Virus record (IMG/VR): IMGVR_UViG_2925929528_000002
Location: 1 to 47,716 of that record
Source of the DNA: a virus
Lineage: Duplodnaviria; Heunggongvirae; Uroviricota; Caudoviricetes
DNA length: 47,716 nucleotides
Strand: one strand, 5' to 3'
Each line of letters opens with the position of its first letter. Within the stretch, counting starts at the first letter, position 1. Positions 39,001 to 45,000 of the stretch are shown in pieces. Made by a program: the position numbers.

Positions 39001-42000
39001 TGCAGATGATACCAGACCAACTGCTAGTCATCTCTGATAACCCTCGTTATAGAGAATGGAATATAACTAAAGAGAATGAGCACAGATTCTATATCTATGG
39101 AAAGGTTTTAATAAGCCAGTCTCAGTCCTTTAAACGGCATGGATAGCATTCATCATCATAAACTAGGCCTCATTCGAGGCCTTTTTTTTTGCCTTAAATT
39201 TGCGTTTTACGCACATATCTATTGCGTTACTCGCAATTTATGATTATCTTCTACTCGTCGGCACATGACGCAACTTACGGACAAGGATGAACAGAACACA
39301 ACCTGGAAGCGCATTCCCCTTCTTTCCGTGGGGATCGGTTTGTAACTGAAGGAGTGCGCTTCCAGTTGTGACGTGTACAAGCGTACCGCAGCGCCGGTCG
39401 ACGCAATTTTTAATCCACCCGATAACGGTTTCTTGAGGGTAAACACATGTCTTCATGTTACGCAGTAGTTTTAAACGGTAATACCGAAATTAAATACTTC
39501 CCGTTCCACGACTCACGTAGCGCTGACGATGCTGAAGCTATGGCGGATGAGTGGCGCTACAAGGCGATCGACGCTATTGGAGCGGAAGAGTCTTCTCGCT
39601 TCCACTTGCGCGTAGTTCGCCCAAAGGTCGTTTTTCAGCTTCCATCCGGAGCCGTGGTGGAGTGTGACCTTGATGACGTAGACATCAACCCGCGAGCCTG
39701 CGCCGACCTGGATTACCACCTCTGCGCATTCGGGTTCAATCGTGGTCTTGACTATTGCGGTAACTGGGACTTAGACGGCGCTGAAATTATCGAATACATC
39801 GCATAACGGCTTATTTGGCGGCTATCTAGTCTTCCACCAGCCAAACAGGAGGAAGAGGATAATGTTCTGATGGGTAACCGCCCTTTTTACACAAGACACG
39901 AGAGTACTACCGAGTGACGGGCCCATAACCCAATCCGCTCGGGCTGATGCAGCAGCTGGTGTTCTCCTGTGTTGTGTGGAGATAACTAACTAATCCTTTG
40001 CAGAGGAAACAGAAATGAAATTATCAAAGTTACGTAACGCCCTTGTCTATCGGGCTACTTTGCCCAGCATTGAAGCGGTTGAAGGGCACCTGCAGGAATT
40101 GCCCTACTCTGAACTTACAGAAACGGAGTTCGCGCGGGCTTCCTTCGTCCCTAATCCGATTACTGGCGAGCTGGTTACGCCAATTACTGACGGTTATGCA
40201 ATCGTGGTTCGCCGCGATGAGAAAATAATCCCCCAGCACGTCGTAATGAAAGAAGCCAATGAGCGTATCCAACGCATCGAAAATGCGTCTGGTCAGAAAT
40301 TGAAGCGCACTGACCGTAACAACATTATCCAGGATGCTAAGGTTCAGCTCTGCAAACAGGCATTCATCAAGTCGTCTCTGATCCTGGTCCTGTATAACAC
40401 TGAAGAAAATCTGCTGATCATTAATTCCGCCAATAAAAACATTGCCAATTTAGTCGGGGCGATGCTGGTTAAAGTGATCGGTTCAGTCAAAACAGTCACG
40501 ATCAACATCAGTGATATCAAAAACGGCCTGACAACGCGCCTTAAAAACCATCTGGACGGCGAAGAATCAGCCTTTGCCGGGTTTGAGGTCGGTGATTATG
40601 TCCAGCTATCCCGCCTGGCAGAACAGAAAGAAGTTATTCGCTACTCTGCGGAACACACTTCCGTTACCAGTGAAATTCTGGAGAGCCTGAACACAGGTTT
40701 TATCGTCGATAACATGGAATTAAGAGGCTGCGGCGTCTCTTTTCTGCTTACAGATAAGTTCCATTTCCGGCGGATCGATACCAAGGATAATGATTATTCT
40801 GATGATGACGACAAAGCCTACCGCTGGCGTCACCAGGCAGGTACGGACATGTTCCAGTTCTGTAAAGTAATTAACCAGCTTTGTGATCTGCTCGCCTACA
40901 AAGAGCCCGAAGAACAAAAACCAGCAGCCTGATTAGAACAGCAGCAATTACCCCATTCTCATGGGTTGGGTTGCTGCACCCTAAATTTACGCGTTGCAGC
41001 ACGTCAGATGGAGAACAAAAGATGGCTAAGACAGCAAATCAACTTATTAAACAGGCGTACGAAATAGCCAAAACTATGCCACCAGCACAGGCAGCAATCA
41101 TCAGGGAACTGGCTACCGTCCTCGATGTTTCGAATGTAGCTCTGCGCCAGACGCGCACCGAACGTGACGCCCTTCTCGCAGAGGTCAAATCATGGGCGAA
41201 AGAGTGTGATCGTCTGACCGAGCGACACACCAAGAATCGCACAAATATGCATGTTCTAGAGGCTATTCGCGATTTGAAAGCAATTTGCCCCGCCAGCTTC
41301 CGTAACGTGGAGGCTCTCTGATGGCTAAAGACTCAAAGGTTGTATACGGCGCCAGTGGCAAAACGAACGCTTTGACGTTCGAACCTGAAAACCTGCACCT
41401 GGTTACCGACAAAACGCACCCGCTTTACGATGAGCGTATCCACCTGCCTATCAGCGAGGCAATGGTGCTGAACATCATGGATCAGGGCGTTCTTGAGCCG
41501 ATTATCGTCTGGAAAGACCCGGAGACAGGGCTGTCTTGTGTAGTCGATGGTCGCCAGCGTGTGCGCCATACACTGGAAGCCAACAAGCGACTGTTGAAAG
41601 AGGGTAAAGAACCGTTACTGGTTCCGGCAGTCGCTAAACGTGGCTCTGCCGTTCGCATGGCGCAGGCGATGGTAAGTGCTAACGAAATCCGCCAGGCAGA
41701 TACACCACTGGGCCGAGCAAAGAAAATGGCTGATGCGCTAGAGCGCGGGCACGACGAGGACGATTTAGCGCTGATGTTCGGCGTGAGTGTCCAGACCGTA
41801 CGCGCAACGCTGTCACTACTGGATGCCACCCAGGCTGTTCGCGATGCAGTGGAGTCCGGAACGGTTACCGTTACCCAGGCGCGTCAGCTGGCATCGCTTA
41901 AACCCGAAGAACAGCGGGAAAAGGTAGCGGAAATCGAAGCGGCAACTGCTGGCACAACCGGCCATGAAAAAGCCCGGCGTCAGCGTCAGATCCTCGGTGA

Positions 42001-45000
42001 TGCAAAGCCGCGCCTGAAAACCCGCAAAGAAATTTCAAAAGCCCTGGAATCTGCCGAGGGCGAGTATGCAAACGCACTGCGTTGGGTGCTTGGGGAGGAA
42101 TTATTATGAGCAAAATAGGCGATCATTTCTTTGAATTTCCGGCGTCGCGTGGAACTCAGGGGGATTCAATTGTCCTGATGCTGACAGTACCTGCACGGAC
42201 ACTAACGCGAGTCCTCGCCAGCGATAACTACGGAGACACCCTTGATCGCTCTCAGCGAGAACTGAACCCAGCCAGGGCGAAAAAGTTTTATCAGTATCTC
42301 GTTGAAGCATACGAAAACAAGGAACCATTCATTATTCCGCCGCTTGTAGGTAACTGCGACTCGTATGTTGAATTCGAAGAGTTCGGAAACACTAATGTCG
42401 GAGTGGCCCGATTCCCTATGGATGCAGAGATTAAATTGTTTGATGGTCAGCATCGCGCAGCAGGTATTGCGGAATATTGTCGCACCATTGATGAACCGAT
42501 CCATGTCCCGATGATGCTTACTCTCCAGTTGCCACTGAAGACGCGGCAGCAGTTTTTCTCGGACATTAACAACAATGTTTCGAAGCCATCTGCGGCAATC
42601 AACATGGCCTATAACGGACGCGATAAGAACGCGCAGGAGATGGTCAGCTTTATCAGTTCACACGACGTTTTTTCTGAGGTCACCGATTTTGAACATAACG
42701 TGGTTCCCGCGAAAAGCGATAAGTGGGTGAGCTTCAAGGCCCTTAGTGATGCCACGGCAAAATTTTCAGATTCCTGCTCACAGGATGATCTTGAGGGGTT
42801 GTGGAATGCTTGGCTGATGCTGACTGGTTTAGATGATATTCGCCGCGGTACGAATCAGGCCGAATACAAACGCGAGTATATCCAGTTCCATGCCGTGATG
42901 ATTAATGCCTTCGGTTACGCCGTCCAGCGGCTAAGCGAAGGCCGGGGAGTTCGCGGGGTCACCCTGATGATTGAGGACCTGGTAATGAATACTGGCATTG
43001 CAGAACGTGAAGATTTCTTCCTCATTTCATCATGGGATGGTATTTGCGCCAGCTGTGAGAAAACCAGGCCAACGGTCATTGCGAATGTCTCATCTCAGAA
43101 AGCTGCAGCATCACGCCTGATGGATGCCATCGTGAATAAAAACTTGTCTGTCAGTAGAGGTAAGGAATCAGCCCATGACTAATAACCAGTTAACCAGAGA
43201 ACGTCTGGAAAAAATTAAATCATGGCGTGACGCCTACGGTGCCGGAAGCAACGTAATGCTGCCAGCTGAAGAGGCTGAGGAGCTGGCTCGCATGGCGCTG
43301 GCCGCAATGGACAACGAGCCGGTGGCGCTTCAACCTGAGCTGGCAAAAGTTATCTATCACTTCCGTGACTGGAATGAAGGGTTTCCGGTTGAGCGGTTCA
43401 AGGCCGACTACGTCATTAGTTGGATGCTGGCAAATTATCCGCCAGCGCAACCAGCAAAGGACCGAGAGCAGGTACGCCGCGAGCACGCAGAGTGGTCACA
43501 GGCAACATTCGGTAATGTCGGTCCGGTTGGCCCGCTGAAGCACCTCAGCAAAGAAGCACTGGAAGCCGCTGAACAGCCTGGCGACCTGTTGGAGTGGGCT
43601 GATATGCAGTTCCTGCTGTGGGACGCCCAGCGCCGGGCTGGTATTACAGACGAGCAAATAACCCAGGCGATGATCGATAAGCTGGCGGTAAACAAACAGC
43701 GCTCATGGCCGGAGCCGAAAGACGGAGAGCCGCGGTTGCACATCAAAGAGCAGCCAGCGCCGGTAGTACCGGATTTCAAAAAACTGGCTCGCGAACTGGT
43801 TGATAATCTCGTCGATTGCGGCGGACTGGATGAAGGGGTGAAAGAGAAGTATCTGGAGTGGGCGGAGAAAACCTGCCGCGCCGCCATGCTCGCAGCAACC
43901 CCGCAGGAGGTGAAGTGAAAGCGAACAAGCTGAAGCGTCGCCGCTGGCGGCGCATGCGGGATGCTTTGGCCGCATATAAGACTGAAGCAAGTGACTGGAA
44001 ATCGTTGTACCTCGAACGCACTGCAGAAATTGCATCACTACGTAGTCAACGATTACTGGTCCCTATGCCGGTAATTGTACCAGCGGAAATTTATAACCAG
44101 TTTAAAGGGGTAAGGGAGGACCACCAGCTGTGTAAAAGGTGTAATGACGGACTGCGTGGTGGATGTTCGTCTTGTTCATATAGTGGCAGATAACCGGTTG
44201 CAGCCGGTTCAGTGGAGAACAACTCATGAGCGATCGCTTCCTGACTGATGAAGAACTGACAGAGGCAACGGGTTCGCCCCAAAAGTCACTGCAGAAAGAG
44301 GTATTAACGCAGAACGGGATCTTTTTTATTGAACGCCGGGACGGAGCAATTAAAACGACCTGGTTTCATATTAACCATCCCGTACAACGCATACTTCCAC
44401 CAGCAGGCCATATGCCTATTCCAGGCATGAACTTTGACGCTGTAGAGAGATAATATGGGCCGCAAAAGAGCGCCTGGTAATGAGTGGATGCCGAAGGGTG
44501 TGTTTTTCCGCCCTTCCGGTTACTACTGGAAGCCAGGAGGTACTACCGAGAATCTAGCCCCAGCAAACGCTTCTAAAGCGGAGGTTTGGTTAGCTTACGA
44601 GAAAGTCGTTGAAGGTCGAAAAAAACTACTCACCTTTCAACAATTGTGGAAAAAATTTTTAAATAGTGCTGACTATGCAGACCTTGCCCCCAGGACACAA
44701 AAAGATTACCTGGCACATGAAAAATACTTGTTAGCGGTTTTCGGCGATGCAGAAGCAAAGGCCATTAAACCTGAACACGTCCGGCGCTACATGGATGCAC
44801 GTGGTAAAAGAAGCCGTGTTCAGGCTAATCACGAGCATAGTTCAATGTCTCGTGTATACCGCTGGGGATATCAGCGTGGTTATGTACCAGGTAATCCGTG
44901 TGTTGGTGTCGATAAGTTTCCTAAACCCCAGCGCGACCGCTACATAACCGATGAAGAGTACATCGCTATCTTCACTCATGCGACGCCTGCAGTTAAAGCC

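What the first reader, a model, noticed from the sequence alone, without database searches (positions are those of the whole stretch)
41321..43182. Translationally coupled ParB/Srx-like + DGQHR-domain gene pair in the early-left operon
Two consecutive ParB/Srx-superfamily proteins: one with a classical ParB N-terminal segment (VVDGRQRVRH), the next with a literal DGQHR motif as in DndB-like proteins. The stop of the first overlaps the start of the second (ATGA) and the second has a strong RBS. No dnd/dpd modification genes or partition ATPase are nearby, so the pair is not explained by phosphorothioation or plasmid partition. It sits among accessory early genes (RdgC, MazG-like), where anti-restriction or DNA-mimic/sensing functions are often found.
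Basis: partly seen in the sequence, partly recalled or inferred. Interest (0 to 1): 0.6.

Follow-up and report, generated by a model that had tools for sequence, protein, structure and literature searches.

The report
Early-operon ParB-like and solo DndB-like genes
Two neighbouring prophage genes really do encode a ParB-like DNA-binding protein and a DndB-like (DGQHR) protein, but they are not a fixed pair; the DndB-like gene belongs to a little-studied clade that phages and conjugative plasmids carry, without any sulfur-modification genes, among the genes they switch on first on entering a cell.

Summary
[quoted passage not shown] ORF2 (42106-43182, 358 aa) is a DGQHR/DndB-family protein with a ParB/Srx fold. 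Their stop and start codons overlap as ATGA behind a GGGGAGGA ribosome-binding site. No ParA, parS-like repeats, or dnd/dpd genes are present.

The idea of a fixed pair is only partly supported.
- Four consecutive genes in this operon overlap, so the ATGA is not pair-specific.
- The closest relatives carry a 44-aa ORF between the two genes.
- 46 of 54 E. coli genomes with this ParB lack the DGQHR gene.
- Most of the 320 E. coli genomes with a DGQHR gene appear to lack a neighbouring ParB.
- ParB-HTH genes of at least two lineages do recur upstream, in about 20-25% of contexts.

The more interesting unit is ORF2. It belongs to a clade specific to mobile elements, about 27% identical to true DndB. 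In prophages this clade sits in early operons, often overlapping a Dam or MT-A70 methylase gene. At 40-45% identity it sits in plasmid leading regions, next to ssb, ArdB/KlcA, PsiA and RadC.

My best reading, by inference, is an NTP-gated, DNA-associated establishment or anti-restriction factor. No experiment supports this yet.

The parts
38319..38381 (.). Two TGCG-N5-CGCA palindromes (38319-38331, 38369-38381) between the cro-like gene and cI. Putative right operators.
   Evidence: 5 matches in the window against 1.16 expected. Four of them form two pairs flanking cI.
38451..39146 (+). CI-type repressor (XRE HTH plus S24 peptidase-like), followed by a strong terminator at 39165-39182.
39201..39235 (.). 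Two more TGCG-N5-CGCA palindromes (39201-39213, 39223-39235). Putative left operators at the head of the early-left operon. The promoter itself is not pinned down.
   Evidence: The promoter scan found no consensus site.
40015..40932 (+). RdgC-family gene in the early-left operon.
   Evidence: Pfam RdgC 2e-35.
41022..41321 (+). orf99, unknown function (phrog_15091). Its stop overlaps the ParB start (TGATG).
41321..42109 (+). ORF1: orphan ParB-type protein. ParB/Srx N-terminal domain with box II variant VVDGRQRVR, an HTH_ParB domain, and a basic helical C-terminal tail.
   Evidence: No ParA-binding LG(K/R)GL motif is visible in the N-terminus (translation).
42092..42099 (+). GGGGAGGA ribosome-binding site for ORF2, lying inside the 3' end of ORF1.
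42106..43182 (+). ORF2: solo DGQHR/DndB-family protein. ParB/Srx-fold N-terminal half (about residues 8-160) and an all-helical C-terminal half. Invariant motifs are RSQRE (48-52), DGQHR (113-117), RQQFFSDINNN (147-157) and DFEH (194-197), followed by a nearly invariant N198.
43175..43918 (+). DUF550 / dATP-dGTP pyrophosphohydrolase-domain gene. It overlaps ORF2 by 8 nt.
   Evidence: PF04447, 1.4e-41.
44226..45441 (+). DUF4224 (excisionase-position) gene and tyrosine integrase. This is the end of the operon and of the prophage arm.

Best explanation
These are two separable accessory genes of the repressor-controlled early-left operon of a lambdoid-regulated prophage (E. coli L37). Both have ParB/Srx-fold domains. 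They are co-transcribed and translationally coupled here, but they are not an obligate system.

ORF2 is the more informative gene. It belongs to a solo DndB-like (DGQHR) clade specific to mobile elements. This clade keeps every signature motif of the family but has no link to dnd genes. It is placed where mobile elements keep the genes they express first in a new cell: phage early operons and the leading regions of conjugative plasmids.

Most likely mechanism (inferred). ORF2 binds ATP or GTP in the ParB/Srx pocket and uses that to engage DNA. In this way it helps the incoming or newly induced element become established. It could do so by shielding DNA, by promoting rapid methylation by the element's orphan methylase, or by otherwise blunting restriction. 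ORF1 is an orphan ParB-type HTH protein. By analogy with KorB and HerB it is probably an NTP-gated DNA-binding regulator, and it may or may not cooperate with ORF2.

What is shown: family and fold membership, motif conservation, operon placement, absence of partition and modification partners, and the comparative contexts. What is inferred: early-only expression, nucleotide binding, DNA association, and the protective role.
For: Family and fold. Motif invariance across phage, plasmid and true DndB members.

Early, repressor-controlled placement: operator-like palindrome pairs flank cI, and a terminator follows cI.

Prophage contexts of the ORF2 clade.
- Lambdoid gam/bet/exo or RecT/YqaJ, then DUF1317, then DGQHR, then xis-int.
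- Uetakevirus SPN1S and E. coli guaA-site prophages, where DGQHR overlaps an MT-A70 methylase gene (also L011 and L014).
- P2-like early operons with DUF2732, DGQHR, Dam, GpA.

Plasmid relatives. tblastn finds matches, typically 40-45% identical, in 1065 PLSDB plasmids, 883 of them conjugative.
- IncL/M: the gene lies in a uniformly oriented block with ssb, an antirestriction gene, Hha and JAB, pointing at mobC/mobA. It is about the 15th ORF from oriT.
- An IncN-like plasmid: directly upstream of ardB-ardR-ccgC.
- Other plasmids: next to a PAPS reductase, Fic, JAB and an N6-methylase, or next to RadC and DUF4942.
- A genomic clade: DGQHR overlaps psiA, followed by DUF5431 and an Antirestrict-family gene.

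Literature.
- The first ~30 ORFs of plasmid leading regions are enriched in anti-defence genes and orphan methylases (PMC11541004).
- A bacterial DndB-like protein binds ATP and GTP (PMC12704722).
- F-plasmid HerB is a precedent for an entry-phase ParB-like DNA clamp (PMC13370423).
- ParB/Srx domains have been proposed as NTP-regulated early effectors of phages and plasmids (PMC5512222).

Not a fixed pair.
Against: No experiment exists on any member of this clade; I found none in the searchable literature.

Context argues for timing and theme only, not mechanism.

The gene is dispensable in at least one very successful plasmid lineage, since IS1 splits it in the 63.5-kb pOXA-48-type plasmids.

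Methylase coupling is seen in only about a fifth of contexts. In this window the Dam methylase sits 5 kb away in the other operon.

The recurrence of ParB-HTH genes upstream leaves room for real cooperation, which I may be underweighting.

Early-only expression rests on operator-like motifs, not on transcript data.

The ORF1 model is poor (pLDDT 64.5).
Confidence: 0.5

Rival explanations
1. ORF1 and ORF2 form a dedicated two-component system. The ParB-HTH protein loads at specific DNA sites and recruits or activates the DGQHR NTPase, for example through heterotypic engagement of their N-terminal domains.
For: The two genes are translationally coupled here. HTH_ParB genes of at least two lineages that are barely alignable with each other lie just upstream of DGQHR genes in the window, in E. 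coli W409, and in Phytobacter, Salmonella, Citrobacter and Enterobacter prophages. All of them carry a (D/E)G(R/H)xR box II that resembles DGQHR.
Against: Each gene is more often found without the other. One to four unrelated small ORFs intervene in most cases, including the closest relatives. Plasmid homologues have no such ParB-HTH gene directly adjacent (in the Vibrio plasmid a large ParB gene lies about 5 kb downstream). ParB-HTH genes are common residents of these operons anyway: 804 homologues of ORF1 at E<=1e-5.
Confidence: 0.12
2. ORF2 acts like DndB proper, as a sequence-specific transcriptional repressor (or a dominant-negative partner of host DndB). It would manipulate host phosphorothioate (Dnd/Ssp) systems and so serve as a specific anti-PT-defence factor.
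For: It shares all DndB signature motifs and 27% identity with DndB. DndB represses dndBCDE at TACG-N10-CGTA sites (PMC4507180). Enterobacteria do carry dnd clusters.
Against: The DndB equivalog score is 99.5 against a cutoff of 328. The clade is separate from true DndB. Repressing modification genes would not disarm restriction proteins already present. The DndB operator motif occurs once in the window, far away, at chance level. The clade is common in hosts where dnd is sporadic.
Confidence: 0.1
3. ORF2 modulates recombination, RecA or the SOS response during entry or induction. It would be a DNA-end or ssDNA-associated factor working alongside RdgC, PsiA/PsiB, Ssb, or Exo/Bet and RecT.
For: RdgC lies within two genes of DGQHR in three very distant clades: the window, Gilliamella L024 and Vibrio phage 51E28.1. 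DGQHR overlaps psiA, in the position where F carries HerB-psiB. In lambdoids it sits immediately after the recombination genes.
Against: These neighbours are the generic content of early-left and leading regions. RdgC linkage is seen in 3 of about 30 contexts. Nothing about the fold points to RecA.
Confidence: 0.12
4. ORF2, alone or with ORF1, is a prophage-borne defence or exclusion factor. It would be an NTP-regulated ParB/Srx nuclease that attacks rival incoming DNA, as Osa does, or that resembles a GmrS-type sensor.
Against: It lies inside the repressor-controlled operon with no promoter of its own detected. It has no HNH/DUF1524 or other nuclease effector domain. PADLOC recognises only the DndB model, with no system partners. 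Placement in plasmid leading regions fits offence or establishment better than defence.
Confidence: 0.08
5. A plasmid- or prophage-partition module (ParB with a centromere).
For: RefSeq names ORF1 'ParB/RepB/Spo0J family partition protein'.
Against: There is no ParA in the window. There are no repeated or clustered parS-like palindromes. No ParA-binding motif is visible. The prophage integrates through a tyrosine integrase next to a tRNA-Ser gene. ORF1 relatives are essentially absent from true plasmids: 8 records, mostly phage-like.
Confidence: 0.01

Closest known systems
DndB (TIGR03233), regulator of the dndBCDE phosphorothioation operon
   Same: Same Pfam/TIGR domain (PF14072 / TIGR03187) and similar length. 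All signature motifs are shared: the QR pair, DGQHR, FxDxN, and an acidic residue in the DFEH region. It has a ParB/Srx fold. A DndB-like protein has been reported to bind ATP and GTP.
   Different: About 27% identity, and a score far below the equivalog cutoff (99.5 against 328). It is never next to dndCDE. It is carried by phages and plasmids in early or leading regions and forms its own clade.
HerB/YfjB of plasmid F (leading-region ParB-like CTP clamp that reprograms host transcription; PMC13370423)
   Same: ORF1 has the same ParB N-terminal domain plus HTH core. It is an orphan (no ParA), and it is encoded among genes expressed immediately on entry.
   Different: ORF1 is 262 aa against 652 aa and lacks HerB domains D3 and D4. 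There is no significant pairwise similarity (E 0.77-2.6). Its box II is GRQRVR rather than the canonical form. ORF1 relatives are restricted to prophages.
ParB-methyltransferase fusions of phages and plasmids
   Same: A ParB/Srx-fold module is associated with an orphan DNA methylase in an element's entry programme. In SPN1S-like, P2-like and other prophages the DGQHR gene overlaps a Dam or MT-A70 methylase gene.
   Different: Here the two functions are separate genes, and the module is of DndB type rather than ParBc type. In this window no methylase is adjacent. No functional link has been tested.
DUF262 / GmrS-type domains (GmrSD, BrxU, SspE, DndI)
   Different: Those proteins carry a C-terminal HNH/DUF1524 nuclease and act as host defence. 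ORF2 has only a helical C-terminal domain and sits in a phage early operon.
Osa (IncW pSa) and DdrB-like ParB domains of phage P1
   Same: ParB/Srx-fold proteins deployed by mobile elements in conflicts, outside partition.
   Different: No detectable sequence relationship was tested or found here. Osa is a fertility-inhibition DNase and DdrB is a virion-injected protein. ORF2 is an early-transcribed gene.

Membership tests
DGQHR domain family (TIGR03187 / Pfam PF14072) | Profile match above the curated cutoff | tested here: met
   TIGR03187 scores 191.1 bits against 58.85. PF14072 scores 146.1 against 29.1.
DGQHR domain family (TIGR03187 / Pfam PF14072) | Near-invariant DGQHR pentapeptide, plus the QR pair and the FxxxN motif | tested here: met
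   D113-R117, Q50-R51 and F151-N155 are invariant in 25 homologues and are shared with plasmid relatives and true DndB. Motif definition is from PMC4619093.
DGQHR domain family (TIGR03187 / Pfam PF14072) | ParB/Srx fold | tested here: met
DndB proper (TIGR03233 equivalog) | Score at or above the equivalog cutoff | tested here: not met
   99.5 bits against a cutoff of 328.
DndB proper (TIGR03233 equivalog) | Encoded with dndC/D/E | tested here: not met
   None in the window or in about 40 related loci. Compare the true dndBCDE cluster.
DndB proper (TIGR03233 equivalog) | Autoregulatory TACG-N10-CGTA operators at its own promoter | tested here: not met
   One match in the window, at 5530, at chance level.
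DpdB (7-deazaguanine dpd cluster) | Linked to a DpdA/tgt-like transglycosylase and to preQ0 genes | tested here: not met
   No such genes in the window annotation. NCBIfam gave only the DGQHR and DndB models.
ParABS partition ParB (ORF1) | ParB N-terminal domain plus HTH | tested here: met
   HTH_ParB 5e-11. The profile aligns to Spo0J, Noc and ParB structures over residues 13-243. Pfam ParBc itself was not hit.
ParABS partition ParB (ORF1) | Adjacent ParA ATPase and an N-terminal ParA-binding motif | tested here: not met
   No ParA in the window. No LG(K/R)GL-type motif in the N-terminus (read).
ParABS partition ParB (ORF1) | parS centromere repeats | tested here: not met
   Only chance two-copy repeats, and no recurring palindrome.
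ParABS partition ParB (ORF1) | CTP binding and hydrolysis, and clamp closure | not testable with these tools
   Box II is GRQRVR and box III is ANEIRQ, against the canonical GERRxRA and ENLQRE. The nucleotide preference is unknown.
HerB family (F YfjB) | Four-domain architecture with the D3 and D4 dimerisation core | tested here: not met
   262 aa against 652 aa. BLASTP E is 0.77 at best, with a colinear 19%-identity alignment over the ParB core only.
GmrSD / DUF262 type IV restriction | C-terminal HNH/DUF1524 nuclease domain | tested here: not met
   No second Pfam domain. The C-terminal half is all-helical.

The most novel reading that the evidence does not exclude
The solo DGQHR clade is an unrecognised, widespread class of entry-phase establishment or anti-restriction factor shared by temperate phages and conjugative plasmids. 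It would be an ATP/GTP-gated ParB/Srx switch that loads on the element's DNA. It would then either boost protective methylation by orphan Dam or MT-A70 methylases, or block restriction nucleases, including modification-sensing ones.
Probability: 0.25. Interest if true: 0.7.

Novelty: new variant of a known kind. Interest (0 to 1): 0.45.

Why it matters
DndB-family proteins are known only as part of DNA-modification clusters (dnd, dpd). This finding shows a distinct solo branch. It is present in about 6% of complete E. coli genomes and in more than 1000 sequenced plasmids, including IncL/M and IncN-type resistance plasmids. It consistently occupies the genes that phages and plasmids express first in a new host, beside known anti-restriction and SOS-inhibitor genes. 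If it is an establishment or anti-defence factor, it would add a new protein class to that toolkit. It would also give a handle on how resistance plasmids and prophages get past host barriers. If it proves dispensable, the pair is simply ordinary mosaic accessory cargo.

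Tried and rejected
Partition module. Rejected: no ParA, no parS-like repeats or recurring palindromes, and an integrase-based lifestyle.

dnd or dpd linkage. None in the window or in related loci.

DndB operator motif. One match, at chance level.

ORF1 and ORF2 as recent paralogues. hhalign gives probability 0.3%.

ORF1 as a HerB homologue. No significant similarity, and the architecture differs.

ORF1 AF2 model. It came out at low confidence (pLDDT 64.5), so I did not use it for fold search.

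BLAST-level search for a conserved partner gene around 21 genome loci. It found only mosaic neighbourhoods.

RdgC linkage. A local HMM found it in only 3 loci.

Literature searches for DGQHR or DndB-like proteins in phage early regions or plasmid leading regions. They found no functional study. The leading-region survey's supplement lists only a 7-member DGQHR family.

PADLOC and Pfam on the AT-rich three-gene block beside the integrase. No hits.

Full report
**What is there**

The window is identical to a prophage of E. coli strain L37 (NZ_CP034589, 100% identity). The prophage has contractile-tail structural genes and a lambdoid-style regulatory region. A cro-like gene and a CII-like gene lie on the minus strand. 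A CI-type repressor lies on the plus strand at 38451-39146, followed by a strong terminator at 39165-39182. After that comes a plus-strand run of tightly packed genes ending in a DUF4224 gene and a tyrosine integrase (44226-45441), close to a tRNA-Ser gene.

Four of the five TGCG-N5-CGCA palindromes in the window fall in two pairs that flank cI: 38319 and 38369, and 39201 and 39223. Chance expectation for the whole window is 1.16. I read these as right and left operators. The operon containing the finding is therefore probably repressed in the lysogen and expressed on infection or induction. That is an inference from motifs. No consensus promoter was found.

**The two genes**

ORF1 (41321-42109, 262 aa):
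- It matches Pfam HTH_ParB (5e-11) and PHROG 1033, 'ParB-like partition protein' (6e-73).
- A profile of its family aligns to the Spo0J, Noc and ParB structures over both the N-terminal nucleotide-binding domain and the HTH (best E 8.7e-7).
- Its box II reads VVDGRQRVR, where canonical ParB has GERRxRA. Box III reads ANEIRQ, where canonical ParB has ENLQRE.
- Pfam ParBc is not hit, so 'classical' overstates it. The ParB core architecture is nevertheless real.

ORF2 (42106-43182, 358 aa):
- It scores 191 bits on TIGR03187 (DGQHR domain, cutoff 58.85) and 146 bits on Pfam DndB.
- It scores only 99.5 on the DndB equivalog model, whose cutoff is 328.
- Its AF2 model (pLDDT 78.9) has an N-terminal alpha/beta half, with DGQHR at the strand-to-helix junction, and an all-helical C-terminal half.
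- No family member has a solved structure detectable by sequence.

**Is it a pair?**

Several results say the direct coupling is incidental.
- Overlapping junctions run through four consecutive genes: orf99, ParB, DGQHR and DUF550.
- In the closest relatives that differ (89% nucleotide identity: E. coli SX45 and Klebsiella phages), a 135-nt ORF lies between the two genes.
- The same small ORF follows this ParB in phage vB_EcoS-733R5, which has no DGQHR gene at all.
- This ParB occurs in 54 of 5426 complete E. coli genomes, but with the DGQHR gene in only 8.
- DGQHR genes occur in 320 of those genomes. The two other lineages I inspected have no ParB. One is an icd-site lambdoid remnant with bet, exo, DUF1317, DGQHR, traR, xis and int. 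The other is a guaA-site prophage with RecT, PerC, DGQHR and MT-A70.
- The two protein families show no similarity to each other beyond fold.

Against full independence, HTH_ParB genes lie zero to four small genes upstream of DGQHR genes in several unrelated prophages: E. coli W409, Phytobacter, Salmonella, Citrobacter and Enterobacter. These ParBs belong to lineages that BLAST barely connects to ORF1. That amounts to roughly 6-7 of about 30 distinct contexts. I cannot say whether this exceeds the background frequency of ParB-HTH genes in such operons. That background is high: ORF1 alone has 804 homologues at E<=1e-5.

**What ORF2 belongs to**

I surveyed about 40 loci from genome contigs, phage records, plasmids and contigs encoding exact homologues. 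They show a coherent clade of solo DGQHR proteins. Its motifs are conserved throughout: RSQR(E), FDGQHR, RQQFFSDINxNxxKP, D(F/Y)E(H/R/K)N and SFKA. True DndB, which is followed by dndCDE, is about 27% identical and falls outside this clade. The clade is modest in sequence diversity: 48 clusters at E<=1e-30 among 1.84 billion cluster representatives.

Its neighbours are mosaic but share a theme.
- In lambdoids it follows the recombination genes, usually with the small DUF1317 gene directly upstream.
- In Uetakevirus SPN1S, the guaA-site prophages and loci L011 and L014, its stop overlaps an MT-A70 methylase gene.
- In P2-like prophages it sits in the early operon. In one lineage it overlaps a Dam methylase gene just before the replication gene A; in another a small ORF takes that place.
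- RdgC lies nearby in three very distant members.

tblastn matches, typically 40-45% identical, occur in 1065 PLSDB plasmids, 883 of them predicted conjugative.
- In IncL/M plasmids the gene lies in a uniformly oriented block (JAB/RadC, DGQHR, DUF4942, Hha, an antirestriction gene, ssb) pointing towards mobC/mobA. That places it on the leading side of oriT, about 15 ORFs in.
- In an IncN-like plasmid it is directly upstream of ardB-ardR-ccgC.
- In a Buttiauxella, Dryocola and Pseudescherichia clade it overlaps psiA and is followed by a DUF5431 gene and an Antirestrict-family gene. In plasmid F, psiA is preceded by HerB and psiB.

Plasmid leading regions are documented anti-defence islands rich in orphan methylases (PMC11541004).

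**Mechanism**

The following points are shown:
- the fold;
- conservation of what, by homology, is the nucleotide pocket;
- placement in early or leading regions;
- the absence of partition and modification partners.

The rest is borrowed from the literature.
- A bacterial DndB-like protein binds ATP and GTP (PMC12704722).
- DndB binds DNA and regulates a DNA-modification operon (PMC4507180).
- F-plasmid HerB is a ParB-like CTP-binding protein, induced at entry, that associates with the chromosome (PMC13370423).
- ParB/Srx domains of mobile elements have been proposed as NTP-regulated early effectors (PMC5512222).

I therefore commit to ORF2 being an NTP-gated, DNA-associated establishment factor. 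Protection from restriction, possibly through the element's methylase, is the most likely output. ORF1 would be an orphan ParB-type DNA-binding regulator. My confidence in the general statement is about 0.5. For the methylase-helper or anti-restriction specifics it is about 0.25.

The rivals are:
- an obligate ParB-DGQHR system;
- a DndB-like repressor aimed at host PT systems;
- a RecA/SOS or recombination modulator;
- an Osa- or GmrS-like exclusion nuclease;
- partition, which is effectively excluded.

**Novelty and verdict**

Both genes are already annotated by family name in RefSeq, so their existence is not new, and the pair as such is ordinary mosaic cargo. I found no description, in the searchable literature, of the solo DGQHR clade's consistent placement in phage early operons and plasmid leading regions, or of its repeated coupling to orphan methylases. 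That makes it a testable lead rather than a surprise. I rate it a new variant of a known kind, of moderate interest.

Noticed in passing
window 45465-47716 (- strand): Three overlapping ORFs (265, about 130-145, and 350 aa) at 30-33% GC, against about 50% for the rest of the prophage. They lie between the integrase and the tRNA-Ser attachment side. They have no Pfam or PADLOC hits and look like foreign cargo, possibly an undescribed defence module.
   Followed up: partly
window 38319-38381 and 39201-39235: Two pairs of TGCG-N5-CGCA palindromes flank the cI gene, making 4 of the 5 matches in the window (1.16 expected). They are probably the OR and OL operators of this prophage's repressor.
   Followed up: partly
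window 43175-43918; locus L040 5654-6571: The DUF550 gene downstream of ORF2 carries the dATP/dGTP pyrophosphohydrolase domain (PF04447). In a Salmonella phage context the same domain is fused to a Lar restriction-alleviation domain, two genes downstream of a DGQHR gene.
   Followed up: no
loci L029 (SPN1S), L056, L059-L061, L011, L014, L042-L045: The DGQHR stop codon overlaps the start of an orphan DNA methylase gene. The methylase is MT-A70 in SPN1S-like and guaA-site prophages and Dam (D12 class) in P2-like prophages. This coupling is at least as frequent as the ParB linkage.
   Followed up: partly
plasmid hits H61-H77 (63.5-65.5 kb IncL/M, pOXA-48-like): In many pOXA-48-type plasmids an IS1 insertion splits the DGQHR homologue. 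The gene is therefore dispensable for that epidemic lineage.
   Followed up: no
loci L017-L021: A clade of 428-438-aa DGQHR proteins is encoded directly upstream of psiA, overlapping it. DUF1281 lies upstream, and DUF5431 plus an Antirestrict-family gene lie downstream. In plasmid F, psiA is preceded by HerB and psiB.
   Followed up: partly
window 40015-40932; L024 9089-9973; L030 7702-8862: RdgC genes lie within two genes of DGQHR genes in three very distant members of the clade: E. coli, Gilliamella and an 83-kb Vibrio phage.
   Followed up: partly
ParB genes in L003, L009, L037, L049 and window ORF1: All the prophage ParB-HTH proteins found upstream of DGQHR genes carry a box II of the form (D/E)G(R/H)xR (DGRQR, DGHHR, EGHRR). 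This is closer to DGQHR than to the canonical GERRxRA.
   Followed up: no
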